Origin: an uncultured Candidatus Saccharibacteria bacterium
Lineage (GTDB): Bacteria; Patescibacteriota; Minisyncoccia; UBA6257; 1-14-0-10-40-38
Assembly: GCA_964434715.1 (NCBI GenBank)
Contig: CAYSWC010000003.1
Span: 6,652-70,651, forward strand
Direction of reading: 5' to 3'
Length of the DNA: 64,000 bases
Part shown: one piece after another, positions 19,372-34,441 of the stretch
How the letters are laid out: each line of letters begins with the position of its first letter
Position numbering within the stretch: position 1 is the first letter of the stretch
Translations under genes and position numbers: made by a program
Notes under the pieces: model-generated
Seen by the model: the letters and a program-made list of their open reading frames with translations, nothing else
Told to the model about the DNA's origin: nothing
Database searches by the model: none

Positions 19372-19454
19372 AGGGACATTGTTTAGCTGGCATAGACTGG
19401 CTAAACAATGGCTCTTCGAAAATCCATTATTTCCCCTTTTTAAGGAATGTTGTG

Positions 19455-19784: not shown

Positions 19785-19966
19785 TAAGGCGCTAGCCGAA
19801 GGCCGACCCACCAAACCGGAAGGGGAAAGACAATGCCATTCCTCTGATGAAAGACGAAACTTCGGAGTCACAACCCCGAAATGGCTCCAATCCTACTGAA
19901 GGGGATCTCGGGTTGCGGCAGGGGCGCCTGACCGTGTAAAAGTAAACTTCAAATTAGAGACGCACT

Positions 19967-20005
19967 CCGCCTAAATCCAACGCAGGGTTTAGGCGGACTT
20001 TTTTT
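19967..20005 (+). terminator. Rho-independent terminator
   Basis: CCGCCTAAA-tccaacgcaggg-TTTAGGCGG, then acTTTTTTT. Confidence 0.8.
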
Positions 20006-20037: not shown

Positions 20038-20112
20038 GGTGGGTGTAGCTTAGTGGTAAAGCGCCGCTCTGTGGCAGCGGTGATGAGGGTTCGATTCCCT
20101 TCACCCACCCCA
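20038..20112 (+). tRNA. tRNA-His (anticodon GTG) with encoded G-1 and CCA
   Basis: G-1, then GTGGGTG/CACCCAC acceptor, C73, D arm GCTT-AGTGGTA-AAGC, anticodon arm CCGCT-CTGTGGC-AGCGG, 3' CCA encoded. The 3' end overlaps the recombinase stop region by 12 nt. Confidence 0.9.
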
Positions 20113-21717
20113 TCGTGAACGAATAGAGGCAAGAGCTTCAGTTTGTGTTGTATTCATCGGCATTTTATTCGGTTCTAACCTTAAGTATTCTTTTTCCAAT
20201 TCAGGGTAGCCATTTCCAATCTCGGCAAACCATTCATTTGGTTCAATAACGAGCTTTTGGTCTTTAATTATCGGTGTTTTGCCGAGAGCAAGTAAGATTT
20301 CTTTCTTCAGTTCTAACCCTTCCTTGCCTTTTGCCATCAAAAACGCTTTACGGGCATAAGTAGCGAAACTAAATGTTTTTTCAGTAAGTTCAAGCCAACG
20401 CTCGGCTCTCGTTTCGGTTTCCCGCAAGTTTCCTTTTAATTGCGTGATTTTGCTTTGTAGAGTATTTTTCTCGGCAATAAAAGTTTCATCATCAATGAGA
20501 TTGCGGTATCTCATCTTGGTAAGTTCATCCAGCTCGTTTTGGGCTTGCACCACCGCCTTGTGCCGCATTTCGTAAATCTTTGTCCTGTCCTCAATCTCGG
20601 TATCATTCTTTTTATTTAAGCCCTCTAACGCCCACTGCAAAAACTCTGGCAAGATGGTGTATTTTTCTATTTCTTTTTCAATTTGCAATTCCAGAGCATT
20701 AACAGGTATAACTTTCTTTTGCGTGCAAATAACTTTTTTAGTTTTTCTCGTGCAATGATAATAGATAAATTCCTTTATCGTGCCAGTTCTCTTTATGAGC
20801 TTTCTTTTGGTCTCGGCAGTATAAAGACAACCGCACTCCTCGCACCGAATAGCCCCCGTAAAAGCGAATGTGTGTTTTTGTGGTCTTGGTTTACCCTCTC
20901 TACCAAGTATCATTTGCACTCGGTCAAATTCTTCAAGCGTTATCATCGGCTCGTGCTTACCTTCATATTGTTTGCCGTCCCATTCTAAAATCCCCGCATA
21001 GAACAAATTAGTGAACATTCTATAGATACCGCTCAAGGACAATTCTTTCCCGCCCTCCCTTTTGTATTTTATCGTTTTCAACCCCCACTCATTATTTGCA
21101 ATCTCTAAAATTTTCGGCGGAGTATAACTGCCCGTAAGCATTAAATCCCACATTTTGCGGACAACATTAAATCGTTCTGCATCTTTAGTTATTACTTTTT
21201 CGGCTTTATCGTTCAAGTATCCAAGAGGAGCACGGGAAGGAAGCCAGCCCCGTTGGAGTTTTCCTTCCACGCCTCGTTTCGTATTTTTTCTTAAATCAAT
21301 AATAAATTGGTTCGCCATTCCGCTTTCAACATTGAAAAGTAGAACATTGTCGTCTGGCAGATATTGTCGGTCTATAGTTTGAATTGATTTGAGTATCGCC
21401 CGTTGCAAAAGCCAGCTTAACTTGCCGCTATCAATCGGGTTGCGAGATAAGCGGTTTATCTGCCAGCACAAAATCCCGTCCGCCTCGCCTTTTTCAATTC
21501 GCTCTATCATCTCGTCAAAAATTGGGCGGTTGTTTGGCTTCTTCGCCGATTTTGCCTCGGTATAGATTTTCTTAATATTCAAATTCAAATCACTGGCGAG
21601 CTGTTTGAGCCGATTTATCTGGTCATCAATGGATTGCACCTGTCGGTCTTCGCTCTCCGATGACTTTCTGGCGTAAATGAAGTATTGGATTTTAGTTTGT
21701 TTATCGTCTCGGTTCAT
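20101..21717 (-). CDS. Large serine recombinase (integrase)
   Basis: 538 aa. Resolvase catalytic domain (YARKSSESEDRQ..SIDDQ), recombinase domain, zinc ribbon CEECG..YYHC and a C-terminal coiled coil. Confidence 0.9.
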   Translation of the reverse strand: MNRDDKQTKIQYFIYARKSSESEDRQVQSIDDQINRLKQLASDLNLNIKKIYTEAKSAKKPNNRPIFDEMIERIEKGEADGILCWQINRLSRNPIDSGKLSWLLQRAILKSIQTIDRQYLPDDNVLLFNVESGMANQFIIDLRKNTKRGVEGKLQRGWLPSRAPLGYLNDKAEKVITKDAERFNVVRKMWDLMLTGSYTPPKILEIANNEWGLKTIKYKREGGKELSLSGIYRMFTNLFYAGILEWDGKQYEGKHEPMITLEEFDRVQMILGREGKPRPQKHTFAFTGAIRCEECGCLYTAETKRKLIKRTGTIKEFIYYHCTRKTKKVICTQKKVIPVNALELQIEKEIEKYTILPEFLQWALEGLNKKNDTEIEDRTKIYEMRHKAVVQAQNELDELTKMRYRNLIDDETFIAEKNTLQSKITQLKGNLRETETRAERWLELTEKTFSFATYARKAFLMAKGKEGLELKKEILLALGKTPIIKDQKLVIEPNEWFAEIGNGYPELEKEYLRLEPNKMPMNTTQTEALASIRSRWGG

Positions 21718-21719
21718 AA

Positions 21720-21911
21720 TTATTGTGTTTTTACTTTATCCAAAAACTTCTTAAATTCGCTCTTGCCTATGCGAAATTCCTTGCCGATTTTATACGCCTT
21801 AACCTTGCCCGATTTTATGTAGCGGTAAATCGTCATATGCGAAACCCGCAGGGCGTTAGCAAGCTCATCAACGAGGTAAAATTCTTGTTTGTTTTTTGTT
21901 TTATTCGGCAT
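21720..21911 (-). CDS. Excisionase/MerR-type HTH DNA-binding protein (63 aa)
   Basis: LVDELANALRVSHMTIYRYIKSGKVKAYKIGKEFRI matches the excisionase-family HTH pattern. It lies immediately upstream of the recombinase. Confidence 0.8.
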   Translation of the reverse strand: MPNKTKNKQEFYLVDELANALRVSHMTIYRYIKSGKVKAYKIGKEFRIGKSEFKKFLDKVKTQ

Positions 21912-21994
21912 AGTAATAATTGGTAGCTATATTGATGTAATCCTTATTTTCTGATTATAAACGATAATAGCATACTTAACAATGGTTTACAAGC

Positions 21995-23131
21995 TCATAA
22001 CGGGGTTTTTGGCTTGATAATCTCAAATCGCTCGTGTTCGGCTCTCAAGAAATCAACCAAATTGGGCACATTTCCGCTTATCTGTCCGAGTTCTTGAAGT
22101 ATCAGGGCAATCTCTTTCTTACGGCGAGAAACGCTCCCGCCTTTGTGTTTCAGTTTCAACTGCTCCCACGCTCCAGCGATGCCAAATTTGGTAGCCATAC
22201 GCACCCAATAATGCAGTTTCTCTTGCTTGGTTTGGCTTAACCCAGAACTCTCTAAATACGAAAAGAGTTTGTTATCTTCCATCTGCGAAAGCGATACCAG
22301 CCCCACCGCTATATCGTTAAACACTTTTTCAAATGTATCACAAAGGATAGCTTTAGCGAGTTCTACATCAAGCAATTCCTCAAGGAAAAAGTCCTTTTTC
22401 TTGCCAGTTTTAACTCGCCTATTCACAACTGCCTCAAAACTATCTTTTCTTTGTAAGGATAATTCAAACTTCAAAGCATTCCTTTTGTGCTTGCCTTGTT
22501 GGTATAAATCTTTTAGTTTCATTTCTTGCTTGGTAAATCCCTGACTAAAAATTTCTCCGAATTTGTCATAAATTGCATATCCTTGCGTGTTCGTATTGCC
22601 GAGAAACTTAATAGCGATACCATCATCCCCGCTACCGAACCAACTCAAACGAAATTTAGAGCTCGGCTTATAATTAAATTGTGCGAGTATTCTTATGACC
22701 TCGTCTGCTCTGCCTAAATAGTCGGGCAATTTAATAACTATTGCGAAATCAACTCGCCTTACGATTGCCTTTCGCAAATGCTCTTTTGTGGTATCAACTC
22801 CCAAGTCATCAAGAAAAAACAGCAATCTTTCAAAAACAGTATCCAAGTCGTTCCTATCTACACTAAACAAACTCGTCCCGTGCACGAGCTTCGGCAAAGA
22901 AACCTGAATTTCCAAAACCTTCTGCGGCTCGGAAAGTCCTCTTATCCGTGTGGGAAGCCCGAATATCGGGCAATAGACGCCCTTTTTTGCCCACGATTTG
23001 GCATATTCACTGCAATACCTCGTGTCCACGCTGAAACCCCTGCCTTGTTGCTTTTTGCCCTCGTTAAAGCGGTTTTTCTCCCGTAGCTTAAACTGCCCGC
23101 TATGAAGTTGTAATACAACGCTATCAATCAT
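21995..23131 (-). CDS. Putative replication-initiation protein (phage/plasmid gene II-like)
   Basis: The likely start MIDSVVLQLHSG overlaps the upstream ORF by ATGATTGA. The MIDxv N-terminus and size are reminiscent of rolling-circle phage/plasmid Rep proteins. This is a weak, pattern-level call. Confidence 0.3.
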   Translation of the reverse strand: MIDSVVLQLHSGQFKLREKNRFNEGKKQQGRGFSVDTRYCSEYAKSWAKKGVYCPIFGLPTRIRGLSEPQKVLEIQVSLPKLVHGTSLFSVDRNDLDTVFERLLFFLDDLGVDTTKEHLRKAIVRRVDFAIVIKLPDYLGRADEVIRILAQFNYKPSSKFRLSWFGSGDDGIAIKFLGNTNTQGYAIYDKFGEIFSQGFTKQEMKLKDLYQQGKHKRNALKFELSLQRKDSFEAVVNRRVKTGKKKDFFLEELLDVELAKAILCDTFEKVFNDIAVGLVSLSQMEDNKLFSYLESSGLSQTKQEKLHYWVRMATKFGIAGAWEQLKLKHKGGSVSRRKKEIALILQELGQISGNVPNLVDFLRAEHERFEIIKPKTPL

Positions 23132-23318
23132 AGTAGCCAGTTTCTTTACGCCGCTTTTCAACCATTTTGAACTCATCCTCGGTCATCGGTTTATAGACAA
23201 GCTCAACCAGACGAAATAATTTCGTCCCTTGTTCCAGAGCTTCCTCTCGGCTGATTTCTTTGCCAAAACGCTTTTTGTAAAGTATTTGGAATTTTCTGAT
23301 TTGCTCGTCCGATAACAT
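23124..23318 (-). CDS. Small hypothetical protein (64 aa), translationally coupled to the Rep-like gene
   Basis: ORF ending ..GYYD with its stop inside the ATGATTGA overlap. Confidence 0.4.
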   Translation of the reverse strand: MLSDEQIRKFQILYKKRFGKEISREEALEQGTKLFRLVELVYKPMTEDEFKMVEKRRKETGYYD

Positions 23319-23437
23319 ACCCTAACTTTAGAAGACGAGGCGATACGCTTTACATAATCTCTTGCTACAATTCGCAAACAAAAAACGGCTTGTTTTTAGC
23401 CGCTTCTCAAAAACTTATTAACACTATGAGAGGAGTA

Positions 23438-25132
23438 TCAAGCGACTACTCCCCCCTTTATAGTGATTTTGTATTTTGACCCTATTCTATAGCCACTTCC
23501 TTTTCTTCCTTCTTCTATAACTTGTTTTCCGTCAATATTTAGATATTTTTTTATATTGCCCCTTATTTTCCCTATTTCGGTTCGTATTGACTGCTCATTC
23601 TTTCCTTCAAGGGCTAACGATATGTCTGCTGTTTGTTTATGCCCCTTGTTAGTTGCAAGATAACGGAGAAGTTTATGTCTATCGCTCTTTTCACCCATCG
23701 GATAGCAGTATTTATCTTTTGGTTCTCGCCACAAATCACCTACGGCATTGAGGTATAATTCCGAAGGATTGTTTTTTATAGATTTTATAGATGATGGTGC
23801 TTGAAATCCTGATATTTTTATTGCTGTTTCACCGACAATTTTAATCGGTAAGGCGTCCGATTCTTTTTTCTGCTCCATTTCTTTTCTTTCTTTCTCTTTC
23901 GTCTCTTTCGCTTTCTCTTTCAACTCCGAAAGGTAAAGCTGAATATCGTTTAATTTTTTCTGCTTATCTGGTTCGGCAAGAATATCACTGCCATTTACTT
24001 CCCGATAGAGCCCCTCTATATCACCATACATTGCGTTCATTTCTGGTCTTATCTTCTGCCAATTAACCCTCCCCCCTTTATCCGAATAGTATTTTTCAGC
24101 ATTAAATAGATTAGTGAAAGGCAAATAGAAAAAGTGCTCATTGCGAGAAAATGGATATGTTTCAGGCCGTGATAGCTCAAGTTCGTTTATTGTTATATTT
24201 ATAAGTTTATAGAGAAGTTGAAAATGATTGTTTAATTCTAAAGTAGGGTGGGTTGGATTTTCACAAAAGGCGAAAACAACATTCATCAATAGTTGATATG
24301 CTTTTCGGAGCAGGGAAATTTTCTCTTTATTTTCTGGTTGGCAAAGGAATTTTAGCTGTTTTTCACTTCTCCTTTCCAATCCCTGCATATACTCGTCTGC
24401 CTCAATTAGTGCTTGTATCCCCGCTTCATCTTCGTCTGCCTCCTGAAGTGCCCAGTAAGTGCCGTCATCTTCCTTATAGGCAATCCCCATATTGTCATAA
24501 CTCAAGTAGCTATTAAACTCCTTTCGTAATGCCTCGGCGGACGAGACATCTCCTTTATGCATAATCGGATGGGTCGCTTCGCCAATAATTTTAGAAAGTG
24601 TCTCCTCATCTTCTTTTTTACTGGAATTGGCAAGATAAACCAATACACCAAATATCATTCGCCATTTTGAATTTGGAACTATTAGTTCCTTATCAACACC
24701 GCAGTTCTTCAAAAACCTTATCAGGTTATTCCCAGTATCCAAATTAGCAATCTTTTGGGCAATCAACTCCAGCGTTTTTTCCCGAATAAGCGTTTTTTGT
24801 CTTTTAGGAAACTTACTTTCGTATTCTTTAAGTAAGGTTGATAATCTATCTGCGTCTTCTTTTTCAACGATTACTTCCAGTAAATAATCATCCGTATATT
24901 CTCCAGATATCTCTCCAAAGTCATCATATAGGGGGATATTATGTTCACTACTGACAGTTAATTTAAGTTCGTTCAAAATAACCATCAATAGCTTATATGG
25001 GATTTTAGGTGTGTCAGTAGTTAAGTATTTATAGGGGTGGGACTTCCCTTCGCTATCTGACCTTTCGGCTGGAGGTGCTTGTAGAATCTCTCGTATTGTT
25101 CTTATTTTTTTATCTATGCTTCGTTCAACCAT
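23438..25132 (-). CDS. Large hypothetical protein (564 aa) with C-terminal OmpR/PhoB-like winged helix
   Basis: The C-terminal ~90 aa (LLRYLATNKGHKQTADISLALEG..SIRTEIGKIRGNIKKYL..GSGYRIG) follow the trans_reg_C pattern. The remainder is unrecognised. Confidence 0.45.
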   Translation of the reverse strand: MVERSIDKKIRTIREILQAPPAERSDSEGKSHPYKYLTTDTPKIPYKLLMVILNELKLTVSSEHNIPLYDDFGEISGEYTDDYLLEVIVEKEDADRLSTLLKEYESKFPKRQKTLIREKTLELIAQKIANLDTGNNLIRFLKNCGVDKELIVPNSKWRMIFGVLVYLANSSKKEDEETLSKIIGEATHPIMHKGDVSSAEALRKEFNSYLSYDNMGIAYKEDDGTYWALQEADEDEAGIQALIEADEYMQGLERRSEKQLKFLCQPENKEKISLLRKAYQLLMNVVFAFCENPTHPTLELNNHFQLLYKLINITINELELSRPETYPFSRNEHFFYLPFTNLFNAEKYYSDKGGRVNWQKIRPEMNAMYGDIEGLYREVNGSDILAEPDKQKKLNDIQLYLSELKEKAKETKEKERKEMEQKKESDALPIKIVGETAIKISGFQAPSSIKSIKNNPSELYLNAVGDLWREPKDKYCYPMGEKSDRHKLLRYLATNKGHKQTADISLALEGKNEQSIRTEIGKIRGNIKKYLNIDGKQVIEEGRKGSGYRIGSKYKITIKGGVVA

Positions 25133-25233
25133 ATGTATGGTAATCGTAATTTTTAAGTAATTGTTTGCAGACAGTTTCCTTCTGCTGTATGCTTGATGTT
25201 AAGCAATGTGAGGTAAAAAATCAATATCAATCT

Positions 25234-25371
25234 ATGGTAATGGTAAGCGGAGGGTCATCAGACCCCGAACTTAAAAAGGAAGTAAAGAAAGGCACAAAGT
25301 GGAATATCGCAGGCGTGGTCGTTGGGTTAATCGCAATAGTCGTAACTATATTGCTGGCTATTTTTCTATGA
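25234..25371 (+). CDS. Possible small membrane peptide (45 aa)
   Basis: MVMVSGGSSDPELKK..WNIAGVVVGLIAIVVTILLAIFL has one TM helix. No good RBS. Confidence 0.25.
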   Translation: MVMVSGGSSDPELKKEVKKGTKWNIAGVVVGLIAIVVTILLAIFL

Positions 25372-25553
25372 GCAAAAAACTTCCAGAATTACTAACCCTC
25401 CGAGAAGCGTGTGGTATTTTGAAGTGCCACCCGAACACTCTGCGGCAGTGGGACAAGAAGGGCATTTTAATCGCTGTCCGTTTTGGCGAGAGAAAAGATA
25501 GGCGTTATCGCAAAGAAGATATTTTTAAGTTATTAAATCAGAAAAAACGATGA
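25368..25553 (+). CDS. MerR/excisionase-type HTH protein (61 aa), candidate controller of the R-M genes
   Basis: ATG at 25368. LLTLREACGILKCHPNTLRQWDKKGILIAVRFGERKDRRYRKEDI is an HTH_17-like pattern. Confidence 0.7.
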   Translation: MSKKLPELLTLREACGILKCHPNTLRQWDKKGILIAVRFGERKDRRYRKEDIFKLLNQKKR

Positions 25554-25608
25554 CATAAATTTTTATTACAACTTGCCTAAACCTTTAACGAGGCATGGCA
25601 CAAAAAAT

Positions 25609-25752
25609 CCACTGCGACATAGAGACGGCCACCCGTCTCCCATCATGTCGCAGTGGTCGGTAGCCCGAAAGGGTTATCGGGCAGTTCCGAAAGGAGCTGT
25701 CGGGGGTAACGGATGGCCTTTTCTGTTACTCCAAGAAAAAACCACTGCGACA
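25609..25752 (+). promoter_or_regulatory. Highly structured leader / operator region upstream of mod
   Basis: 12-bp stem CCACTGCGACAT (25609-25620) / ATGTCGCAGTGG (25645-25656) enclosing GAGACGG-CCAC-CCGTCTC. Two GAAA-tetraloop hairpins follow. CCACTGCGACA is repeated at 25741-25751 just before the mod ATG. Confidence 0.5.
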
Positions 25753-25754
25753 AT

Positions 25755-27254
25755 ATGAGTAAAAAAATAGATTTGCAATCGGCTCTTACACCAGCCGATA
25801 TAAAATTAACGCAAAAACTTCTTAAGGAGAATGAAGCTCTTAAGAAGGAAATTAAACATCTCAAATCACGCAAAAAGTATGGTCTTGTTTGGGATAGCGA
25901 AAAAGAGCCAGAAAAAGTAGTTGAGCTGTGCAAAGACAAATTACCTGTTCTGGCCGAAGACCAAGACAGAGAGATTGAAACGGATAAAGAGAAGCCCGTG
26001 AATGTTCTCATTGAGGGTGATAATTACCATGCCCTCTCTGTCTTAAATTACACTCATAACGAAAAAATAGATTTGATTTACATAGACCCGCCCTACAACA
26101 CTGGGAGCGAGGGTTTTATGTATAACGACAAAATTGTAAATCGTGAGGACTCATACAGGCACAGCAAATGGATTAACTTTATGGATAAGAGGTTGCGGCT
26201 GGCTAAAAATCTCCTGAAAAAAGATGGGGTAATTTTAATAAATATAGACGATAACGAGATAGCTCAACTTAAATTGCTGTGCGATGAAATCCTCGGCGAG
26301 GATTACTTCAGAAACACTGTAATTTGGTCATATCGCACTGGTGGAGCACCGCATAAAAATGACGCTTTCTCCAGAAAGCACGACTATATCCTTTTATATT
26401 CTCGCTCAAAAGAATACTTTTTTAATAGATTTAAGGAGAAAATTCCCTACGAAAAAGATTTTTTCGGTGCGAAAAAAGATGAGACGGGCAAGTTTTATGC
26501 TGATGTAAATTTGCGAGATGTAATTGAGGGCGACATCATCCTTTTCAAAGACGGTAAAGAGTATAAGAAGATAAGCGTTAAACCAGTTCTCAATTTATCC
26601 AGCGAAAGAGTTGAGGATTTCCCAACCCAAAAACCTATCGGGTTAATTAAGTATTTTCTTGAGATATTAAGCAGACCCAATGCGACTATTTTGGATTTTT
26701 TTGCTGGTTCGGGTAGCACTGGACACGCTGTTTTGGATTTGAATAAAGAAAATAAAGACAAACGACAATTTATTTTATGCACAAATGACGAGAACAATAT
26801 CTGCACAAAAGTATGCTATCCGAGATTAAAAAGAAATATCGTTGGCTTCGCAAAGGACAATGGCAAAAAAGTTGCTGGTCTCGGCGGCAATCTTAAATAC
26901 TTCAAAACCGATTTTGTTGATAACGCCACAACCGATAAAAATAAGAAAAAGCTCGTTGATAAATCAACCGAAATGCTCTGCCTGAAAGAAGATTGTTTTG
27001 AAAAAGTGAAATCGGGCAAGAGCTTCAATGTTTTCAAAAACCCCAAAGAAAAATATCTCGGCATAATTTATGACGATGATGGCATTGAGGGTTTTAAGAA
27101 AGAAGCGAAAAAGCTCAACAAAAACTTCTCGGTCTATGTTTTCTCGCTTGATGATAGTGCGAGAGAGGAAGAATTTGAGGACATCAAAGATTTGGTTGAA
27201 TTAAAGCCAATTCCTGCGGTCATATTAAATGTCTATAAACGCATATTCAAATGA
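25755..27254 (+). CDS. mod: Type III restriction-modification methyltransferase (Mod)
   Basis: ATG at 25755 (MSKKIDLQ). DPPY motif in IYIDPPYNT precedes the AdoMet motif FFAGSGSTG (beta-class order). Overlaps res by 4 nt. Confidence 0.85.
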   Translation: MSKKIDLQSALTPADIKLTQKLLKENEALKKEIKHLKSRKKYGLVWDSEKEPEKVVELCKDKLPVLAEDQDREIETDKEKPVNVLIEGDNYHALSVLNYTHNEKIDLIYIDPPYNTGSEGFMYNDKIVNREDSYRHSKWINFMDKRLRLAKNLLKKDGVILINIDDNEIAQLKLLCDEILGEDYFRNTVIWSYRTGGAPHKNDAFSRKHDYILLYSRSKEYFFNRFKEKIPYEKDFFGAKKDETGKFYADVNLRDVIEGDIILFKDGKEYKKISVKPVLNLSSERVEDFPTQKPIGLIKYFLEILSRPNATILDFFAGSGSTGHAVLDLNKENKDKRQFILCTNDENNICTKVCYPRLKRNIVGFAKDNGKKVAGLGGNLKYFKTDFVDNATTDKNKKKLVDKSTEMLCLKEDCFEKVKSGKSFNVFKNPKEKYLGIIYDDDGIEGFKKEAKKLNKNFSVYVFSLDDSAREEEFEDIKDLVELKPIPAVILNVYKRIFK

Positions 27255-29437
27255 TTAAACTAAAAGATTACCAACAACAGGCGGCAGACAATCTGCACCG
27301 AAAAATAGAGAACTCGTTGCGGTCATCCGAAAACGAGGTGGTTATTTTTCAAGCCCCCACTGGTTCGGGCAAAACCGTTATGGTGTCAGAGATGTTGAGG
27401 GAGCTTGTGAGAGGACGAAAGGACGACAAAAAGTTTTCATTCGTTTGGATTTCAGTAAGGATGTTGCACGAACAGAGCAAAGAAAAACTGGAGAAATACT
27501 ACGAAGACGATGGAACTCTTAAATGCTCATATTTTGAAGATTTGGAAGACAGAAAAATTGCTGAAAACGAAATCCTGTTTATTAACTGGCATAGTATAAA
27601 CAAAAAAGATATTAACATTTTTGTCAGAGAAAACGAGCAGGACAATAACCTCAACACCATCATTAAAAGAACTAAAGATGATGGCAGGATAATTGTTTTA
27701 ATCATAGACGAGAGCCATCACACGGCTGGCTCGGAGAAGTCCAGAGAACTGATTGAGGTTATTAGCCCGAAGGTAACTTTAGAGGTTTCCGCCACGCCGC
27801 ACTTGGAAGAAAGTGCCGCCGAAAAAGAAAAAGTCCGTCTGTCCGATGTTAAGGCGGAAGAAATGATTAAATCCGAAATATCCGTAAATCCAGAATTTCT
27901 GGATATTAAAGTTGGCACGAAAAGCTCTAATGAGATTGTCATTGAGGAAGCTCTTAAAAAGCGAGAGGAGCTGGCCAAGATGTATAAGCAAGAAAAGGCG
28001 AAAATAAACCCGTTAATGCTTATTCAGCTTCCCGATAACAAAGCTGGCCTCACGAGCAAGAAAGAGGAAGTGATAAAGATTTTGGATAAAAGAGGTATAA
28101 CAGAAAAGAACGGCAAGCTCGCAATATGGTTGTCCGAGGATAAATCTGAAACCCTGCCGAACATTGAAAAGAACGAAAACGAGGTTGAGATTTTGATATT
28201 CAAGCAAGCCATTGCTCTTGGTTGGGATTGCCCCAGAGCTTCAATTCTGGTTATTTTCAGGGAGTCAAAGAGTTTTACTTTCACTATCCAAACAATCGGC
28301 AGGATAATGCGTATGCCAGAGCTGAAGTATTACTCAAAAGAGCCAGAACTTAATAAGGGCTTTGTTTTCACGAATTTAGCGAAGATAGAAGTTACAGAAG
28401 AATATGCAAAAGATTATGTTACGCAATACGAAGCAAAAAGAGATAATAAGCTCTATAAAAGATTTACTCTGCCCTCAATCTACTTGAGGCGGCAAAGAGA
28501 GCGAACCCGCTTATCGGGGGAGTTTGGCAAATTCTTTTCGGCTATTGCAAAAAGCAATGGTTTGCAACAAAAAGTAAATCCCAAGCCATCAAAAATTATC
28601 AGCCCCATAATCGCCGAAGGCAAAATTGTTGATATTGATAAATCTGGCGAGATAGAACACAAAGGCACAATCAACATAGCTCTAAACGAAAAAGAACTAC
28701 AAGAAAAGTTTGATAAGTTTATCGTCCAAAATTGCACTCCTTACGCTCCCGCCGACTCCAGCGACAGAATGAAAACCGCACTTTACCAGTTTTTCAATCA
28801 AGAGTTTGGTTTTGCAAAATATGACCCGAAAGTGCAGGCCATAGTGCTTGGCCAAGAAAATGTCCAGCTTTTTATAGACACTATCAATCTGGCAAAGGAG
28901 AAATACAAAAAAGAGGTTGTTGAGAAGCTGGCCGAGAAAAGAGAGCTAACCGAAACGCCAGAGTGGGAAGTGCCGATTGTTATTACTTACAACAGCCGAT
29001 ACCAGCAGGAAGACCAGCCGCTATCCGTTATGAAGCCGTTTTATACAGCCAAGCAGAGCGAGCCAGAAAAATTGTTTATTGAGTTTTTGAATGGTTCAAA
29101 AAAGGTTAAGTGGTGGTTTAAGAACGGCGAAGGAGAAATAAAGTATTTTGCCGTGTTAAGGCCAGATGACCAAGCGTTTTATCCCGATTTTATTATTCAG
29201 CTTAAAGATGGGACGATAGCGATATTTGATACGAAATCAGGGAGAACCGCCGAAACTGGAGACGCCGCACCCAGAGCCGAGGCATTGCAGAAGTTTATCA
29301 AGAAGCAAAATAAGAGCGGCAAAAAGTTAATAGGCGGAATTGCCATTTATGTTAATGGCACTTGGCGATACAACGACAACGAAAAATACGAATATAACCA
29401 GAAGGACTTATCAAAGTGGAAGGTTTTAGATTTATAA
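27251..29437 (+). CDS. res: Type III restriction enzyme Res subunit (helicase plus PD-(D/E)xK nuclease)
   Basis: SF2 motifs APTGSGKT and IIDESHH. C-terminal nuclease-like YPDFII..IFDTKSG. Confidence 0.85.
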   Translation: MIKLKDYQQQAADNLHRKIENSLRSSENEVVIFQAPTGSGKTVMVSEMLRELVRGRKDDKKFSFVWISVRMLHEQSKEKLEKYYEDDGTLKCSYFEDLEDRKIAENEILFINWHSINKKDINIFVRENEQDNNLNTIIKRTKDDGRIIVLIIDESHHTAGSEKSRELIEVISPKVTLEVSATPHLEESAAEKEKVRLSDVKAEEMIKSEISVNPEFLDIKVGTKSSNEIVIEEALKKREELAKMYKQEKAKINPLMLIQLPDNKAGLTSKKEEVIKILDKRGITEKNGKLAIWLSEDKSETLPNIEKNENEVEILIFKQAIALGWDCPRASILVIFRESKSFTFTIQTIGRIMRMPELKYYSKEPELNKGFVFTNLAKIEVTEEYAKDYVTQYEAKRDNKLYKRFTLPSIYLRRQRERTRLSGEFGKFFSAIAKSNGLQQKVNPKPSKIISPIIAEGKIVDIDKSGEIEHKGTINIALNEKELQEKFDKFIVQNCTPYAPADSSDRMKTALYQFFNQEFGFAKYDPKVQAIVLGQENVQLFIDTINLAKEKYKKEVVEKLAEKRELTETPEWEVPIVITYNSRYQQEDQPLSVMKPFYTAKQSEPEKLFIEFLNGSKKVKWWFKNGEGEIKYFAVLRPDDQAFYPDFIIQLKDGTIAIFDTKSGRTAETGDAAPRAEALQKFIKKQNKSGKKLIGGIAIYVNGTWRYNDNEKYEYNQKDLSKWKVLDL

Positions 29438-29440
29438 TTT

Positions 29441-29800
29441 ATGTTAAACTTTAATCCTAAAAAGTGCCTTTGCAATGTTGCTGATTGTGGTAAATGCTTA
29501 ACTTTGGGGTGCACGGATGATAGTTGTAGCACTCACCGCATAGTAACAAAATGGCGGTATAGAAAACGCCTTTTAGAAAGTTTAAGAAGTGATGTTGGAA
29601 AGTGGTGCACTGATTATAGTTGTAACATTCACCGCATAACAACAAAAAGGCGGTCTATAAAATACCCTTTGAAAGTTTTGTTGCGGAGTATGGTCGGGGG
29701 GATTAAATCAAAAAGAGAAGCGGCGACTTTGAGAAAAGATATAAAAACCTGCGAAGAAGAAATTAAGCGGTTGAGCGAGGTTATGAGTATCAAACAATAA
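29441..29800 (+). CDS. Cys-rich hypothetical protein with internal duplication (119 aa)
   Basis: Two copies of C-[TD]-D-x-S-C-x-x-H-R-I-x-T-K-x-R (CTDDSCSTHRIVTKWR / CTDYSCNIHRITTKRR). Starts 4 nt after the res stop. Confidence 0.5.
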   Translation: MLNFNPKKCLCNVADCGKCLTLGCTDDSCSTHRIVTKWRYRKRLLESLRSDVGKWCTDYSCNIHRITTKRRSIKYPLKVLLRSMVGGIKSKREAATLRKDIKTCEEEIKRLSEVMSIKQ

Positions 29801-29823
29801 TGAGCAGTAAGGTTGAGTAAAAA

Positions 29824-30099
29824 ATGATTATGAAAAAGAAACCAAAAGTTGAGATAACCGAAATCACCTCTGATAAGAAAATCTCCTTTAGGCAATTTAA
29901 GGCGGCAAATAAAGAAGAACTGCTAACTCACGCCATTGCTAAAAAACAACTGATTTCTAATGGCACATTCACCCGCTCCAAGCTCCAAAAGCTCGTTGAT
30001 GAAAAGGAACTTCACGAGGTTGTATTCGCTGGTGCGATTTACTTTGAAAGAGATGAGGTCTCAAGTTATCTTAAAAACTTAATTAGTAAAAAGAAGTAG
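29824..30099 (+). CDS. Hypothetical protein (91 aa), possibly DNA-binding
   Basis: ORF only. The C-terminal AIYFERDEVSSYL resembles excisionase-type HTH tails. Confidence 0.35.
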   Translation: MIMKKKPKVEITEITSDKKISFRQFKAANKEELLTHAIAKKQLISNGTFTRSKLQKLVDEKELHEVVFAGAIYFERDEVSSYLKNLISKKK

Positions 30100-30135
30100 T
30101 GAGTAGTAGTGGGATAAAATAATAATAATTTCTAA

Positions 30136-30330
30136 ATGGAAAATACTGATATTACACTTGAAAAAAGAGTAAAGATTGTTATGGGAGCGTTTACTGTCCT
30201 TGTTTTATTTCTAATTTATCATCTCGCAGTTTTAATGTCGGTAGCACCCGACTTTCTTGAAGCGAAAATTGCTCACGCCCCTACGCCACAATGGGCTGAT
30301 ATACAAAACCTAATGGAGGCGATGAAATAG
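30136..30330 (+). CDS. Small membrane protein (64 aa)
   Basis: One TM helix (IVMGAFTVLVLFLIYHLAVLM). Confidence 0.4.
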   Translation: MENTDITLEKRVKIVMGAFTVLVLFLIYHLAVLMSVAPDFLEAKIAHAPTPQWADIQNLMEAMK

Positions 30331-30378
30331 TAAGTAGCGAGGTGGGGTAAATTTCTGGTATGATGGGACTTATTGACT

Positions 30379-30873
30379 ATGGAGCAAAAAGATATAAAAC
30401 AGCTTATCAAGGCAATAATAGCAGTTGGGGTGTTGTTGTTGCTTATTGTTATCGTCAAGCCGCAAAACTACATAAAGATTTCAGACAACCCACCCGCCGA
30501 AAAGAAACCCAAACCCCTAGACAACGGATGTTTTATTTTCTTAACATTGAGCCAGCATGGGGACATTAACCTGCCAGTAGGGACGATTTTTGGCTACCCA
30601 ACCGAAACTCACGGCAACATTTACGACATTATCAGAGACGACACCTTTATAATGTCCGCTTACCTCATAGAAAGTTTTGAGAAGGATTTTAGGTGTTTTG
30701 AGACAGAGGAAGAAGCAGTGGCGGCGGGCTATACGAAGTTTTTAACTGACCAAGCGGCACGCAAGAAAAGGCGAGAAGAAGCAAAGAAATTCTTGGATGA
30801 ACTGCGGGAAGGGGGCAGTGCAACTGACACAGCTAAAACATTACAATCCATAGACGCTATGATTGGTTTTTGA
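30379..30873 (+). CDS. Membrane-anchored hypothetical protein, paralog 1
   Basis: ATG at 30379 (MEQKDIK). Shares SQHGDINLPVGTIFGYP..NIYDIIRDDTFIMSAY..KDFRCF.TEEEA..GY.KFL..QAARKK with the next gene. Confidence 0.55.
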   Translation: MEQKDIKQLIKAIIAVGVLLLLIVIVKPQNYIKISDNPPAEKKPKPLDNGCFIFLTLSQHGDINLPVGTIFGYPTETHGNIYDIIRDDTFIMSAYLIESFEKDFRCFETEEEAVAAGYTKFLTDQAARKKRREEAKKFLDELREGGSATDTAKTLQSIDAMIGF

Positions 30874-30916
30874 AGAAATAGTGAGTATGAGTAGCAGGGT
30901 GGGGTAAAATAAAACT

Positions 30917-31390
30917 ATGACCATAAAAAGATTTATCGTGCTGTTCATCTACGCCATTTCAGCGATGTTTGTTTTAGTTATTGTTCTGACTATTTGGAGT
31001 TCAGAGCCAACAGGACAATACGCCGAGCATATACCTGATAATAATTGCCCTGTTTTCTACACAGAAAGCCAACACGGAGACATTAACCTTCCAGTAGGGA
31101 CAATTTTCGGATACCCAGCTAAATCTGGTGAAAACATTTACGACATTATCAGAGACGACACCTTTATAATGTCCGCCTACTTCATAAACAGTTTCAATAA
31201 GGATTTTAGATGTTTTAAGACCGAGGAAGAAGCTATAGCAATGGGCTATAAGAAATTTTTAAGTAATCAGGCGGCTCGGAAAAAAGCGAGGACTGAAGCC
31301 GAGGAGCGGCTGAATAAGCCGTGGGGAGAACGCAACACAACCGACACCACTCAAATATTGCGAGACATAGACGCTATGATTGGTCTTTGA
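30917..31390 (+). CDS. Membrane-anchored hypothetical protein, paralog 2
   Basis: See 30379-30873. Both end with ..DIDAMIG[FL]. Confidence 0.55.
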   Translation: MTIKRFIVLFIYAISAMFVLVIVLTIWSSEPTGQYAEHIPDNNCPVFYTESQHGDINLPVGTIFGYPAKSGENIYDIIRDDTFIMSAYFINSFNKDFRCFKTEEEAIAMGYKKFLSNQAARKKARTEAEERLNKPWGERNTTDTTQILRDIDAMIGL

Positions 31391-31486
31391 AACAATAGTG
31401 AGTTGAGGGGTAGGGTAAGTTTGCGTTTTATCTTCGCAGGTGATAACCTAAAATCACAATGCAACTACAATCGTTTAGAAGATAAA

Positions 31487-31536
31487 AACCGCCAAAAAAA
31501 ACAACCTTATCAAGTTGTGCTTCTTGGCGGTTTTTT
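31487..31536 (+). terminator. Two-tier hairpin terminator
   Basis: AACCGCCAA..ACAAC-cttatcaa-GTTGT..TTGGCGGTT followed by TTTTTT. Confidence 0.7.
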
Positions 31537-31544
31537 ATTTATTT

Positions 31545-31615
31545 GCCCTCGTAACTCATCGGTAGAGTGCTGGTCTGAAAAGCCAGATAAGTTGGTTCAA
31601 CTCCAACCGAGGGCA
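31545..31615 (+). tRNA. tRNA-Phe (anticodon GAA), second copy with different sequence
   Basis: Acceptor GCCCTCG/CGAGGGC, D arm ACTC-ATCGGTA-GAGT, anticodon arm CTGGT-CTGAAAA-GCCAG (A37), T arm GTTGG-TTCAACT-CCAAC. Confidence 0.85.
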
Positions 31616-31618
31616 CAC

Positions 31619-31691
31619 GCCCTTGTAGCTCAATGGATAGAGCGAGCGTTTTCTGAACGCACGGTTGCGGGTTCAAATCCTGCCGAGGGCA
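31619..31691 (+). tRNA. tRNA, probably Arg (anticodon TCT), second copy
   Basis: Acceptor GCCCTTG/CGAGGGC, D arm GCTC-AATGGATA-GAGC, anticodon loop TTTCTGA (TCT with G37), T arm GCGGG-TTCAAAT-CCTGC. Confidence 0.7.
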
Positions 31692-31818
31692 CTATCAAAG
31701 TTTCTCAAATCGGGTATGTAGATATACTCATTTTGTCGTTGTATAATGGTTCTAACATCCTCTACGATTTGACCCCTAAAGGAAGCAGGAGGCGCGTCAC
31801 TCATGTTAAAATATAACC

Positions 31819-33082: not shown

Positions 33083-33083
33083 A

Positions 33084-33650: not shown

Positions 33651-33660
33651 ATTTTAGAAA

Positions 33661-34206: not shown

Positions 34207-34208
34207 AA

Positions 34209-34433: not shown

Positions 34434-34441
34434 TGATTAAT

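What the first reader, a model, noticed from the sequence alone, without database searches (positions are those of the whole stretch)
20038..31540. Integrative element at tRNA-His with large serine recombinase, type III R-M and uncharacterised cargo
The large serine recombinase ORF overlaps the 3' end of tRNA-His by 12 nt. It is followed by an excisionase-type HTH, a coupled small ORF plus a Rep-like gene, a 564-aa unknown protein, an HTH, Mod/Res, and five small orphan genes. The far end lies near a strong terminator and two extra tRNAs that duplicate isoacceptors found elsewhere in the window. As expected for large serine recombinases, no long att direct repeat is visible, so the boundaries are inferred. 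More than half of the cargo is unannotatable, and its position next to an R-M system makes it a plausible home for additional defence or anti-defence functions.
Basis: partly seen in the sequence, partly recalled or inferred. Interest (0 to 1): 0.55.

Follow-up and report, generated by a model that had tools for sequence, protein, structure and literature searches.

The report
tRNA-inserted mobile element with split recombinase
This is a real 11.7-kb mobile DNA element sitting in the end of a tRNA-His gene of an uncultivated Patescibacteria bacterium; it belongs to a previously undescribed, widespread family that carries restriction systems, and its recombinase gene is cut in two whenever the element integrates.

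Summary
A large serine recombinase (LSR) gene overlaps tRNA-His by 12 nt and is followed by the listed genes. The interpretation, an integrative element, is supported by comparison rather than by an empty site. About 25 related loci, mostly in Patescibacteria MAGs, carry the same Rep–HTH_17–LSR module. Wherever that end is visible, the LSR abuts a convergent tRNA (His, Gln, Asp, Asn or Arg). Flanks differ and cargo varies, mostly R-M systems. One relative assembles as a ~10,975-bp circle.

Four corrections:
- The right end is about 31,776, not 31,540. The tRNA-Phe/tRNA-Arg pair is element-borne.
- A 5-bp repeat, ACCCC, marks attL and attR, giving an 11,665-bp unit.
- Rep, the 64-aa ORF and the HTH genes are backbone, not cargo.
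- An Rfam LOOT RNA heads the cargo operon.

The new point is that attP lies inside the LSR ORF. Joining the two ends extends the ORF in frame into a conserved tail. Detached copies of that tail motif lie at the far end of integrated elements in nine loci of two LSR clades. The tail is contiguous with the LSR in the circle. I rate this a new variant of a known kind, of moderate-to-good interest.

The parts
20039..20112 (+). Target gene: tRNA-His(gtg). Its last nucleotides, including the encoded CCA, are supplied by the element.
   Evidence: ARAGORN and Rfam at 70.4 bits. It is the only one of the 11 tRNAs in the window with an encoded CCA.
20107..20111 (+). attL identity block ACCCC, the inferred crossover region in the acceptor 3' strand and discriminator of tRNA-His.
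   Evidence: Same frame as the 12-bp repeat in L021 and the 5-6-bp blocks in L003 and L026.
20101..21717 (-). Large serine recombinase, integrated (truncated) form, 538 aa, ending ...SIRSRWGG* inside the tRNA antisense.
   Evidence: Pfam PF00239/PF07508/PF13408; phrog_95; alignment to SprA.
21720..21911 (-). 63-aa HTH_17 (excisionase-type) protein, 2 nt upstream of the LSR. Candidate recombination directionality factor or regulator.
   Evidence: PF12728 at 1e-11. Conserved in this position in nearly all related loci.
21995..23131 (-). Rolling-circle-type replication initiator (Rep_trans / phage G2P-like), 378 aa from the conserved start. The ORF extends to 23176.
   Evidence: 101 homologues. 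12 of 33 family members hit PF05144. The AF2 model has pLDDT 86. Its top PDB hit is the RCR initiator 4CIJ and its top viral hits include an Inoviridae Rep.
23124..23318 (-). 64-aa conserved backbone ORF that overlaps the Rep start by 8 nt. Function unknown.
   Evidence: Syntenic homologues lie beside Rep in most loci.
23438..25132 (-). 564-aa modular protein in the first slot of the backbone operon. It has an N-terminal alpha-beta-beta-alpha-beta-beta-alpha domain, a helical middle and a C-terminal OmpR-like winged helix. Inferred to bind DNA.
   Evidence: 531 homologues with a separately shuffled C-terminal domain. AF2 model pLDDT 87. AbiJ_NTD3 matches 8 of 38 members and Trans_reg_C matches 1 of 38. 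No solid fold match. The slot is conserved but the gene is replaced in L021 and L023.
25165..25371 (+). Small ORF with a C-terminal hydrophobic stretch (listed as 68 aa), at the head of the divergent (cargo-side) unit.
   Evidence: ORF list and sequence; no family hit.
25299..25553 (+). HTH_17/MerR-type regulator (probably 61 aa from the ATG at 25370), transcribed divergently from the backbone operon.
   Evidence: PF12728 at 2.7e-9 and PF13411 at 1.7e-7. A 73%-identical homologue sits in the same position in L023.
25574..25701 (+). LOOT RNA (Rfam RF03000), 12 nt upstream of mod.
   Evidence: 65.7 bits against a gathering score of 46.4, full length. It is in the same position in L003, L016 and L021/L022. 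7 of 17 predicted pairs show compensatory changes.
25713..27254 (+). Type III R-M methyltransferase (Mod).
   Evidence: PF01555 at 1e-43; PADLOC MTase_III at 8e-75.
27251..29437 (+). Type III-like restriction subunit (Res), 728 aa. Its start overlaps the mod stop.
   Evidence: ResIII at 5e-24 and Helicase_C; PADLOC REase_III at 1e-17. A C-terminal ...YPDF...FDTK... motif was read from the sequence.
29441..31390 (+). Five small orphan ORFs. The 119-aa ORF has an internal Cys-rich repeat. The 91-aa ORF is conserved in L003. The 64-aa ORF is hydrophobic. The 166- and 157-aa ORFs are tandem paralogues.
   Evidence: ORFs and repeats D1 and D2; no hits in four HMM libraries. The 157-aa family has 29 members, in Patescibacteria MAGs where named. 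In L027 it lies next to an MmeI-like R-M gene, IS transposases and a DUF5659 gene.
31484..31535 (+). Hairpin plus T-run, terminator-like, closing the cargo operon ahead of the tRNA pair.
   Evidence: Inverted repeat I16 with 22-nt arms, 86% complementary; sequence. Analogous hairpins precede the pair in L002 and L003. The simple terminator scan did not list it.
31545..31692 (+). Element-borne tRNA-Phe(gaa) and tRNA-Arg(tct) tandem pair.
   Evidence: ARAGORN and Rfam. The same pair in the same orientation is present in L002 and L003. In L021 only the Arg gene is intact. These elements sit in other tRNAs and hosts. The pair differs from the host copies at 19152 and 14769.
31673..31776 (-). Detached 3' segment of the LSR gene. 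It would encode the tail GQIVEDVRTIIQRQNEYIYIPDLRNFDSALGRI* once the element circularises. It is also the P arm of attP.
   Evidence: The in-frame fusion was reconstructed in the window, L003, L021 and L026. The motif search finds detached tails at the far ends of nine integrated loci in two LSR clades. The tail is contiguous with the LSR in the circle L015/L017.
31772..31776 (+). attR identity block ACCCC. The element unit is 11,665 bp measured block to block.
   Evidence: Homology with L003 stops within a few nt of this point.

Best explanation
Window positions about 20,107-31,776 are one integrated copy (11,665 bp) of a mobile element family found mainly in Patescibacteria (CPR).

Inferred cycle:
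1. As a circle, the element carries a complete large serine recombinase gene of about 570 codons, and attP lies inside its last ~35 codons.
2. The recombinase recombines attP with attB, which is the extreme 3' end of tRNA-His (identity block ACCCC).
3. Integration rebuilds the tRNA end with element DNA. This includes an encoded CCA, whose antisense TGG is a Trp codon of the recombinase.
4. Integration also leaves the recombinase's conserved C-terminal tail 11.6 kb away at the other end, so the integrated gene ends prematurely at ...RWGG*.
5. The 63-aa HTH_17 protein encoded immediately upstream is the likely excision or directionality factor.
6. The divergent HTH_17/MerR gene and the 564-aa winged-helix protein are the likely regulators.
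7. After excision, the Rep_trans/G2P-like Rep replicates the circle by rolling circle.

Cargo is a LOOT-RNA-led operon with a type III R-M system and five small, partly membrane-anchored ORFs, followed by a terminator and the element's own tRNA-Phe and tRNA-Arg(UCU).

What is shown: the gene content, the family recurrence, tRNA targeting, the junction frames, the split ORF, and a circular or tandem relative.

What is inferred: the activities of the LSR, Xis and Rep, the exact crossover dinucleotide, the role of LOOT, and the role of the tRNAs.
For: Domains and motifs:
- LSR, HTH_17, Mod and Res are identified.
- Rep has 101 homologues, named ones nearly all Patescibacteria. PF05144 matches 12 of 33 family members. 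The AF2 model has pLDDT 86, and its best PDB match is the RCR initiator 4CIJ (E 5e-4, probability 1.0). Its viral-library matches include an Inoviridae Rep.

Recurrence in different contexts:
- The Rep-HTH_17-LSR order, ending at a convergent tRNA, is seen in the window and in L002-L005, L010-L012, L019, L020, L023 and L024.
- The targets are His, Gln, Asp, Arg(tcg) and Asn, and the host neighbours differ.
- Cargo varies: type III, type I, type IIG and type II R-M systems, GmrSD, and a reverse transcriptase.

Junctions:
- At the left junction, element homology starts directly after the tRNA CCA in 9 loci.
- Encoded CCA is present in 9 of the 12 tRNAs that abut an LSR, and in none of the other 27 tRNAs in the window and loci.
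- The right end was located by homology in the window, L003, L021 and L026.
- Identity blocks fall in one frame: ACCCC in the window, CCGCGC in L003, GGAGC in L026, and 12 bp in L021.

Split ORF:
- Reconstructed circles extend the LSR ORF in frame into a conserved tail, IV(E/D/N)(D/N)VRT...NEY.YIPDL, in 4 of 4 cases.
- The homologous motif, L(R/L)(D/N)DFRT, lies detached at the far end of L009, L011, L012, L013 and L018. It is contiguous with the LSR in the observed circle L015/L017.

Circle:
- The ends of L015 overlap, giving a period of about 10,975 bp, and L017 from another assembly is a permutation of it.
- Its attP carries TGGCGG (the complement of CCGCCA). At that point its relatives, with 58-62% LSR identity, run into tRNA-Asp in L011 and L012 and into an end-truncated tRNA in L018.

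Other:
- G+C is low.
- AGA codons are 2.5 times more frequent in element genes than in host genes.
Against: - No empty site and no circular junction were found for this particular copy. The host's nearest relative has only 64% RNR identity, and a metagenome scan with a flanking protein found nothing.
- The window's own Rep does not reach Pfam significance. TM-scores to 4CIJ are low, at 0.30-0.39.
- The identity block in the window is only 5 bp, so the crossover position rests on frame conservation across four loci.
- The L015 'circle' could instead be a tandem array. It carries a histidine kinase that looks host-like.
- HTH_17 proteins are classically partners of tyrosine integrases, so the RDF assignment is a guess.
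- No transfer machinery was found, so how the element moves between cells is unknown.
- L023/L024 has a 77%-identical LSR but lacks a recognisable tail segment.
Confidence: 0.82

Rival explanations
1. This copy is a fixed, no longer mobile genomic island. The family was mobile, but the window copy is a domesticated remnant kept for its R-M system and tRNAs.
For: No empty site or junction evidence exists for this copy. The integrated LSR lacks its conserved tail. Decayed relatives exist: L025 has a fragmented LSR, and L021 has an LSR remnant beyond its right end.
Against: Every backbone ORF is intact. The detached tail segment is still open and in frame with the LSR across the predicted junction. 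The G+C contrast is still strong. An identical copy is seen in a second assembly.
Confidence: 0.1
2. It is a prophage, inovirus-like prophage or phage satellite, not a plasmid-like integrative element.
For: Rep resembles filamentous-phage G2P and Inoviridae Rep. The element encodes small membrane proteins. LSRs are common phage integrases (phrog_95).
Against: PHROGs finds only the integrase and a helicase; there is no capsid, terminase, Zot/pI ATPase or coat match. There is no match in 50,697 phage records. IMG/VR scans with the LSR, Rep and the 564-aa protein found no relatives.
Confidence: 0.05
3. Rep is a relaxase for transfer rather than a replication initiator. Rep_trans proteins serve as relaxases in Tn916-type elements and some IMEs, so the element would be mobilised as ssDNA instead of replicating.
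For: The Rep_trans/G2P fold family includes both activities (own knowledge; IME review PMC5704250, listed). No origin or single-strand origin was identified here.
Against: No coupling protein, FtsK-like translocase or T4SS gene lies in or near any of the loci examined. A free circle or tandem unit is assembled for a relative, which fits autonomous replication. The two roles are not exclusive.
Confidence: 0.2
4. The boundaries are as the first reader drew them: the element ends at the terminator (31,540), and the tRNA-Phe/tRNA-Arg pair is host DNA.
For: The terminator-like hairpin just before the pair. tRNA clusters are common in host genomes.
Against: The same pair in the same orientation sits inside elements inserted in tRNA-Gln (L002) and tRNA-Asp (L003), and partly in L021. 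In L003 about 2 kb of further element DNA lies beyond it. The host has its own Phe(gaa) and Arg(tct) genes. The conserved, in-frame LSR tail lies beyond the pair.
Confidence: 0.03

Closest known systems
Integrative and mobilizable elements (IMEs) and actinomycete integrative elements (AICEs such as pSAM2)
   Same: These are small (about 5-18 kb) site-specific integrative elements. They carry an integrase, an excisionase-type HTH, a rolling-circle-type Rep or relaxase and variable cargo. AICEs sit in tRNA genes and replicate after excision (abstracts of PMC2440964 and PMC5704250).
   Different: AICEs use tyrosine integrases and carry an FtsK-like Tra gene; none was found here. This family uses a large serine recombinase, lives in Patescibacteria, has no recognisable transfer gene, and has attP inside the recombinase ORF.
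Large serine recombinase (serine integrase) systems: SPbeta SprA, A118, TP901-1, phiC31, CcrAB
   Same: The same three-domain architecture and catalytic motifs. The best solved relative is SprA. Only a very short identity block joins attL and attR. A small accessory gene lies adjacent.
   Different: The characterised LSRs I know of (own knowledge) integrate into protein-coding genes or intergenic sites, with attP outside the int ORF. Here the target is the last ~10 nt of a tRNA, the specificity has diversified over at least five tRNAs, and integration removes the enzyme's conserved C-terminal ~30 residues.
Elements whose attP lies inside a gene: SSV-type archaeal integrases (int gene split on integration) and integration-dependent immunity in mycobacteriophages such as BPs (own knowledge)
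   Same: Integration changes the C-terminus of an element-encoded protein because attP is inside its ORF. The integrated and free forms therefore encode different products.
   Different: Those cases involve tyrosine recombinases, splitting int in SSV and truncating the repressor in BPs. Here a serine recombinase's own tail is detached. Whether this has a regulatory consequence was not tested.
tRNA-targeting genomic islands and defence islands (Islander-type islands, tycheposons, pipolins)
   Same: Integration at the 3' end of tRNA genes with regeneration of the tRNA, a backbone plus a variable cargo slot, cargo dominated by defence genes, and tandem accretion at one tRNA (abstracts of PMC4383910, PMC11551731 and bioRxiv 10.1101/2020.12.28.424599).
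   Different: Those rely on tyrosine integrases and long (15-50+ bp) direct repeats. Here the repeat is only 4-12 bp and the enzyme is an LSR.
LOOT RNA motif (Rfam RF03000)
   Same: Full-length match above the gathering score, with supporting covariation.
   Different: Rfam lists it only as a generic sRNA gene, and I found no functional description in the searchable literature. Here it has a defined context, the leader of the cargo operon in four independent elements of this family.

Membership tests
Large serine recombinase | N-terminal resolvase catalytic domain with the Ser nucleophile motif (YxRxS) and the RLSR motif | tested here: met
   PF00239 at 1.1e-19. YARKSS and INRLSR align with YLRRSR and ITRLSR of SprA.
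Large serine recombinase | Recombinase domain plus zinc-ribbon domain C-terminal to the catalytic domain | tested here: met
   PF07508 at 3e-8 and PF13408 at 1.9e-8, both above their curated cut-offs.
Large serine recombinase | Catalyses attP x attB recombination with a 2-bp staggered cut | not testable with these tools
   Only junction comparison was possible. It gives identity blocks of 4-12 bp in one frame.
Rep_trans / phage G2P rolling-circle initiators | Sequence membership (PF05144 or PF02486) | tested here: inconclusive
   The window protein has no Pfam hit. 12 of 33 aligned family members hit PF05144, the best at 9.5e-9.
Rep_trans / phage G2P rolling-circle initiators | Rep_trans fold | tested here: inconclusive
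   The top PDB hit is 4CIJ at E 5e-4 and probability 1.0, but TM is only 0.30-0.39. BFVD hits reach E 4.5e-10 with TM 0.46 and include an Inoviridae Rep.
Rep_trans / phage G2P rolling-circle initiators | Catalytic tyrosine and a cognate nick site (double-strand origin) | not tested
   Tyr53 and Tyr188 are invariant in the family alignment. They were not mapped onto the 4CIJ active site, and no origin was sought.
Type III restriction-modification | Mod: N6/N4 adenine/cytosine methyltransferase of the type III class | tested here: met
   PF01555 at 1e-43. Ten of the 11 top-ranked PADLOC hits are MTase_III, the best at 8.4e-75.
Type III restriction-modification | Res: SF2 helicase motor plus a C-terminal PD-(D/E)xK nuclease, encoded directly after mod | tested here: inconclusive
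   ResIII and Helicase_C are met. REase_III scores are weak, at 1e-17 over a partial profile, and the protein is short at 728 aa. The nuclease motif was only read by eye. mod and res overlap by 4 nt.
AICE / conjugative integrative element | FtsK-like Tra translocase or a T4SS with coupling protein | tested here: not met
   No such domain appears in any element ORF or in the related loci.
Prophage | Virion structural or packaging genes | tested here: not met
   PHROGs finds only an integrase and a helicase. No phage-record or IMG/VR relatives were found.
tRNA-integrating genomic island | Insertion at a tRNA 3' end with the tRNA regenerated, and a displaced repeat at the far end | tested here: met
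   tRNA-His is intact. ACCCC is repeated at 20107 and 31772, with a 12-bp repeat in L021. Encoded CCA is found only in tRNAs that abut an LSR, 9 of 12.
tRNA-integrating genomic island | Empty site in a relative, or an excised circle of the same element | tested here: inconclusive
   No close relative of the host is available. A circle or tandem unit was seen only for a distant family member.
LOOT RNA (RF03000) | Covariance-model score above the gathering threshold, with structure-supporting covariation | tested here: met
   65.7 bits against 46.4. 7 of 17 predicted pairs show compensatory changes across 4 elements, and two GAAA loops lie on the sense strand.

The most novel reading that the evidence does not exclude
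Splitting the serine recombinase gene at attP may be a built-in state switch. Only the free circle would make the full-length enzyme, with the conserved IVxDVRT...NEYxYIPDL tail, which would be competent for integration. The integrated copy would make a tail-less enzyme whose activity is biased towards excision with the adjacent HTH_17 protein, or is silenced. In the same family, the orphan LOOT RNA would be the regulator or leader of the exchangeable defence-cargo slot. The element's own tRNAs would support expression of its AGA-rich genes, or counter tRNA-targeting defences. This would be a previously unrecognised mode of directionality control for large serine recombinases, and the first biological context for LOOT.
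Probability: 0.3. Interest if true: 0.75.

Novelty: new variant of a known kind. Interest (0 to 1): 0.6.

Why it matters
- Patescibacteria (CPR) have tiny genomes, and few of their mobile elements have been described. I found no paper describing this family.
- The family appears to be a recurrent vehicle for restriction-modification and other defence genes across many CPR lineages.
- It shows large serine recombinases that have diversified to target the ends of different tRNA genes. These are potentially useful, naturally orthogonal integrases with short, predictable attB sites.
- The split recombinase ORF is a simple, testable idea for how directionality or expression could be tied to integration state.
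- The family gives the orphan LOOT RNA a defined genomic context.
- The detached tail motif, and the junction-only encoded CCA in two LSR clades, are practical signatures for delimiting such elements in MAGs when no empty site is available.

Tried and rejected
- **Long att repeats.** The repeat finder on 19.0-33.5 kb gave nothing usable. The 25-nt 3' end of tRNA-His has no second copy, even allowing 3 mismatches.
- **The GGTTCTAAC direct repeat (20171 and 31748) as att core.** I first took it for the core. It occurs twice against 0.28 expected and recurs in L002, L003 and L026 (exact) and L021 (one mismatch). I rejected this reading. The left copy encodes RLEP and the right copy encodes VRT of the LSR, so coding constraint explains both. 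Homology with L003 also extends beyond both copies.
- **Crossover at the dinucleotide AT just after CCA** (which gives a reconstructed palindrome ACGATCGT). I rejected it because L021, L023 and L025 lack AT there, and because it makes the attP lengths differ by 10 bp between the window and L021. The ACCCC frame fits all four loci and keeps the ORF in frame.
- **Empty-site search.** A metagenome scan with the flanking 188-aa protein found nothing. RNR homologues are at most 64% identical over the full length. The exact LSR is found on one other contig only, which holds the same insertion.
- **IMG/VR scans** with single proteins (LSR, Rep, 564-aa) found no relatives. megablast against phage records gave no match.
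- **The 564-aa protein.** No Pfam, PHROG or NCBIfam hit, one marginal PADLOC hit treated as noise, and only weak PDB sequence matches. The fold search gave only weak LAGLIDADG-like and WhiA-like similarity for the N-terminal part. It is not homologous to the genes in the same slot in L021 and L023.
- **LOOT as a single-strand origin on the Rep-sense strand.** I considered this. G-U pairs and GAAA tetraloops favour an RNA on the cargo-sense strand, but four sequences cannot settle it.
- **LOOT in the Weinberg 2017 paper.** It is not mentioned in the main text and no supplements are held.
- **L023 as the 'minimal element'.** It lacks a detectable tail segment, so it may be a truncated remnant.

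Full report
**1. Observation**

- tRNA-His(gtg) lies at 20039-20112.
- A 538-aa ORF on the minus strand (20101-21717) ends 12 nt inside the tRNA.
- That ORF has the three domains of a large serine recombinase (LSR): Resolvase, Recombinase and Zn_ribbon_recom.
- It matches the phage integrase family phrog_95 at 3e-66.
- It aligns over residues 14-432 with SPbeta SprA, including the catalytic YxRxS and RLSR motifs.

The genes that follow are:

| Coordinates | Feature | Evidence |
|---|---|---|
| 21720-21911 (-) | 63-aa HTH_17 gene | |
| 23124-23318 (-) | 64-aa ORF overlapping the Rep start | |
| 21995-23131 (-) | 378-aa Rep-like gene | |
| 23438-25132 (-) | 564-aa ORF | |
| 25299-25553 (+) | divergent HTH_17/MerR gene | |
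| 25713-27254 (+) | type III mod | |
| 27251-29437 (+) | res | |
| 29441-31390 (+) | five small ORFs | |
| 31484-31535 | hairpin with T-run | |
| 31545-31692 (+) | tRNA-Phe(gaa) and tRNA-Arg(tct) | |

G+C is 0.37-0.42 over this stretch, against about 0.45-0.53 in the immediate flanks.

**2. It is one member of a recurrent element family**

The Rep-like protein has 101 homologues; where a source names the organism it is nearly always a Patescibacteria MAG. I fetched about 25 loci through these homologues.

The module Rep, then HTH_17, then LSR recurs, sometimes with cargo between Rep and the LSR. In every locus where the LSR end is visible, the LSR runs into a convergent tRNA or a tRNA 3' part:

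- His: window, L005, L019, L020
- Gln: L002
- Asp: L003, L011, L012
- Arg(tcg): L004
- Asn: L010, L023/L024
- a tRNA 3' half in L021, L025 and L026

The host genes next to the elements are unrelated between loci: RNR here, a DNA polymerase III clamp-loader-type ATPase gene in L002, DNA ligase in L003, and a CCA-adding/poly(A)-polymerase-family gene in L004.

Cargo differs between loci:

- type III R-M: window, L002, L003
- GmrSD plus an m5C-MTase/HinP1I/Vsr set: L004
- type IIG-like R-M: L021
- type I R-M: L026
- reverse transcriptase plus MTase: L025

L026 and L021 show tandem accretion. In L026 a second LSR lies directly beyond the right end. In L021 an LSR remnant does. L025 has a fragmented LSR.

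**3. A circular or tandem relative**

The ends of L015 overlap with a period of about 10,975 bp. L017, from another assembly, is a permutation of the same sequence. No tRNA is present in it.

Downstream of the point where its integrated relatives continue into a tRNA, the circle continues with other element DNA. Those relatives have 58-62% LSR identity. In L011 and L012 the tRNA is tRNA-Asp, and in L018 it is a tRNA cut off by the contig end.

The shared sequence ends at TGGCGG, the complement of the tRNA-Asp end CCGCCA.

A tandem array would assemble in the same way, and the molecule carries a histidine kinase. I therefore read this as 'circle or tandem unit'.

**4. Boundaries**

*Left junction.* An alignment of nine left junctions shows element homology beginning directly after the tRNA CCA. 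Encoded CCA is itself informative.

- Of the 11 tRNAs in the window, only the junction tRNA-His has it.
- Across the related loci, eight further tRNAs that abut an LSR have it: L003, L005, L011, L012, L019, L020 and L023/L024.
- The three junction tRNAs in other LSR clades (L002, L004, L010) lack it.
- None of the 17 other tRNAs in those loci has it.

So the element supplies the tRNA's terminal nucleotides.

*Right end.* The Phe/Arg tRNA pair is also present, in the same orientation, in L002 and L003. In L021 only Arg is intact and Phe is truncated. In L003 a further ~2 kb of element DNA lies beyond the pair. The pair is therefore element-borne.

Homology between the window, L003, L021 and L026 at the right end runs through ...catactcatttt...GGTTCTAAC-N5-CTACGAT and stops a few nt later.

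*Identity blocks.* In one common frame, attL and attR share:

- GCGGAGCCAAGT in L021 (12 bp; the far side there is an older element's left end)
- CCGCGC in L003
- GGAGC in L026
- ACCCC in the window, at 20107-20111 and 31772-31776

The window element measures 11,665 bp block to block.

**5. The recombinase gene is split by integration**

I joined the right end to the left end at these blocks. In all four reconstructions the LSR ORF then continues in frame for 13-35 codons and encodes a conserved tail:

- window: ...RW-GQ-IVEDVRTIIQRQNEYIYIPDLRNFDSALGRI*
- L003: ...RW-RG-IVDNVRTVIQQQNEYIYIPDLTS*
- L021: ...TW-LR-IVNDVRTYFKETNEYVYIPDLRPKT*
- L026: ...QW-LH-IVDNVRTYFITRNEHFYIPSLES...*

A motif search over all loci gave the following.

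- It finds the same kind of tail, L(R/L)(D/N)DFRT(L/M)(D/N)W..., detached at the far end of L009, L011, L012, L013 and L018. Where the LSR is visible (L011, L012, L013, L018) it belongs to a second clade, about 28% identical to the window's LSR.
- It finds that tail contiguous with the LSR in the observed circle L015/L017.
- In the window, the detached segment is 31673-31776 on the minus strand. Its last codons overlap the antisense of tRNA-Arg.

This gives independent support for the end assignments. It shows that attP lies inside the LSR ORF, so the integrated copy encodes a protein that ends RWGG* in tRNA antisense. It also explains the GGTTCTAAC 'direct repeat': the two copies encode RLEP and VRT respectively.

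**6. Other parts**

*Rep.* 12 of 33 family members match PF05144, the N-terminal domain of phage G2P. The AF2 model has pLDDT 86. Its best PDB match is the Rep_trans initiator 4CIJ, at probability 1.0 but TM 0.30-0.39. Its viral-library matches include an Inoviridae Rep. I take it as a rolling-circle initiator. A relaxase role is not excluded.

*The 564-aa protein.* It has 531 homologues, and its C-terminal ~105 residues occur behind many different N-termini. The model (pLDDT 87, pTM 0.43) shows three parts:

- an N-terminal alpha-beta-beta-alpha-beta-beta-alpha unit
- a helical middle, where 8 of 38 homologues hit AbiJ_NTD3
- a C-terminal beta3-alpha3-beta-hairpin domain like an OmpR winged helix

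No convincing fold match was found. Its slot is conserved, but unrelated genes fill it in L021 and L023. My best guess is a DNA-binding regulator or maintenance protein (about 0.4). An Abi-like sensor is the alternative.

*LOOT RNA.* Rfam finds a full-length LOOT RNA (RF03000) at 25574-25701, between the HTH gene and mod. The same RNA sits at the head of the cargo operon, divergent from the backbone, in L003, L016 and L021/L022, although the downstream cargo differs. Covariation supports the hairpins. I found no functional description in the searchable literature.

*Codon use.* AGA codons occur at 18.5 per 1000 in element genes and 7.4 per 1000 in host genes. Phe codons are equally frequent in both. 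Codon supply could explain tRNA-Arg(UCU) but not tRNA-Phe.

*Small ORFs.* The five small ORFs have no hits in Pfam, PADLOC, PHROGs or NCBIfam. The 157-aa family has 29 members, in Patescibacteria MAGs where a source names the organism. In L027 it again lies beside an R-M gene, IS3-type transposases and a DUF5659 gene, a family also found in the backbone of L023.

**7. Comparison with known systems, and verdict**

In function this resembles IMEs and AICEs and tRNA-targeting defence islands. It differs in four ways:

- the enzyme is a serine recombinase, not a tyrosine recombinase
- the att identity is very short
- no transfer genes are present
- the recombinase ORF is split by integration

The nearest precedents for a split ORF are tyrosine systems: SSV-type integrases and integration-dependent immunity in mycobacteriophages (own knowledge). 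Literature searches found no description of such elements in Patescibacteria. They also found no serine integrase paper that places attP 'within the integrase gene'.

I rate it a new variant of a known kind. The element and its boundaries are well supported. The mechanistic consequences are hypotheses: the tail as a switch, the role of LOOT and the role of the tRNAs.

The main gap is the lack of an empty site or junction reads for this copy. The host has no close relative in the databases.

Noticed in passing
window 25574-25701 (+); also L003 7599-7723 (-), L016 431-547 (-), L021 8366-8491 (-), L022 128-253 (-): A full-length Rfam LOOT RNA (RF03000) sits at the head of the cargo operon, divergent from the backbone operon, in four independent elements whose downstream cargo differs. 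I found no published function.
   Followed up: partly
window 15231-18917 (-): The flanking host gene is an adenosylcobalamin-dependent ribonucleotide reductase interrupted by an intein with a LAGLIDADG homing-endonuclease domain (Pfam hits). Some homologues carry the intein and others lack it.
   Followed up: no
window 19343-19997 (+): Between host tRNA-Phe and tRNA-His lies a perfect 12/12 sigma-70-type promoter match (19343-19371). It is followed by a noticeably G+C-rich ~330-nt ORF (19452-19784, no Pfam hit) and a strong terminator-like hairpin (19966-19997). This is an unexplained small transcription unit just outside the element.
   Followed up: no
L021 about 13000-13290 (the tRNA next to the LSR): ARAGORN calls no tRNA here. 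However, a tRNA 5' half (TCCGCGGTAGCTCAACGGTAGAGCGACTCC...) and a 3' half (...GGAGTGGGTTGTAGGTTCGAATCCTACCCGCGGAGCCA) are separated by about 200 nt. It looks like an intron-containing tRNA, possibly Tyr(GTA), serving as the integration target. This rests on reading the sequence by eye only.
   Followed up: no
L026 1-1665 and 1570-1600; L021 2022-2387: Tandem accretion. In L026 the right end of one element abuts the LSR 3' end of a second, different element (38% LSR identity). In L021 a 123-aa LSR C-terminal remnant lies just beyond the right end, which explains its unusually long 12-bp repeat.
   Followed up: partly
L015 (whole) and L017: The relative that assembles as a ~10,975-bp circle carries an m5C methyltransferase with a 362-aa partner, an XRE/ImmA(M78)-type regulator pair and a 746-aa 7TM-GAF histidine kinase. 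The last is unusual cargo for so small an element.
   Followed up: partly
window 32051-38426 (-): The host flank holds a run of at least five paralogous secreted or pilin-like proteins sharing an N-terminal ...AYGGW.EPT..PP.GNV.AP.N... segment. One has a PKD domain and several are Cys- and Gly-rich.
   Followed up: no
window 29508-29679 and 30373-31390: The 119-aa cargo ORF contains two copies of a 76-nt repeat encoding a Cys/His-rich unit (C..C....C..H). The 166- and 157-aa ORFs are tandem paralogues (56% aa identity) that share a conserved C-terminal region.
   Followed up: partly
L025 1896-3725: One decayed family member carries a 609-aa reverse transcriptase (RVT_1). Its C-terminal ~130 residues match the 564-aa protein's C-terminal winged-helix domain (61% identity), which suggests that this domain is shuffled between element proteins.
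   Followed up: no
record titles of L011, L013, L016 and L018: Several contigs carrying this Patescibacteria-type element are binned in public MAGs labelled Gammaproteobacteria or Woesearchaeota. This probably reflects mis-binning of short mobile-element contigs rather than a true host range.
   Followed up: no
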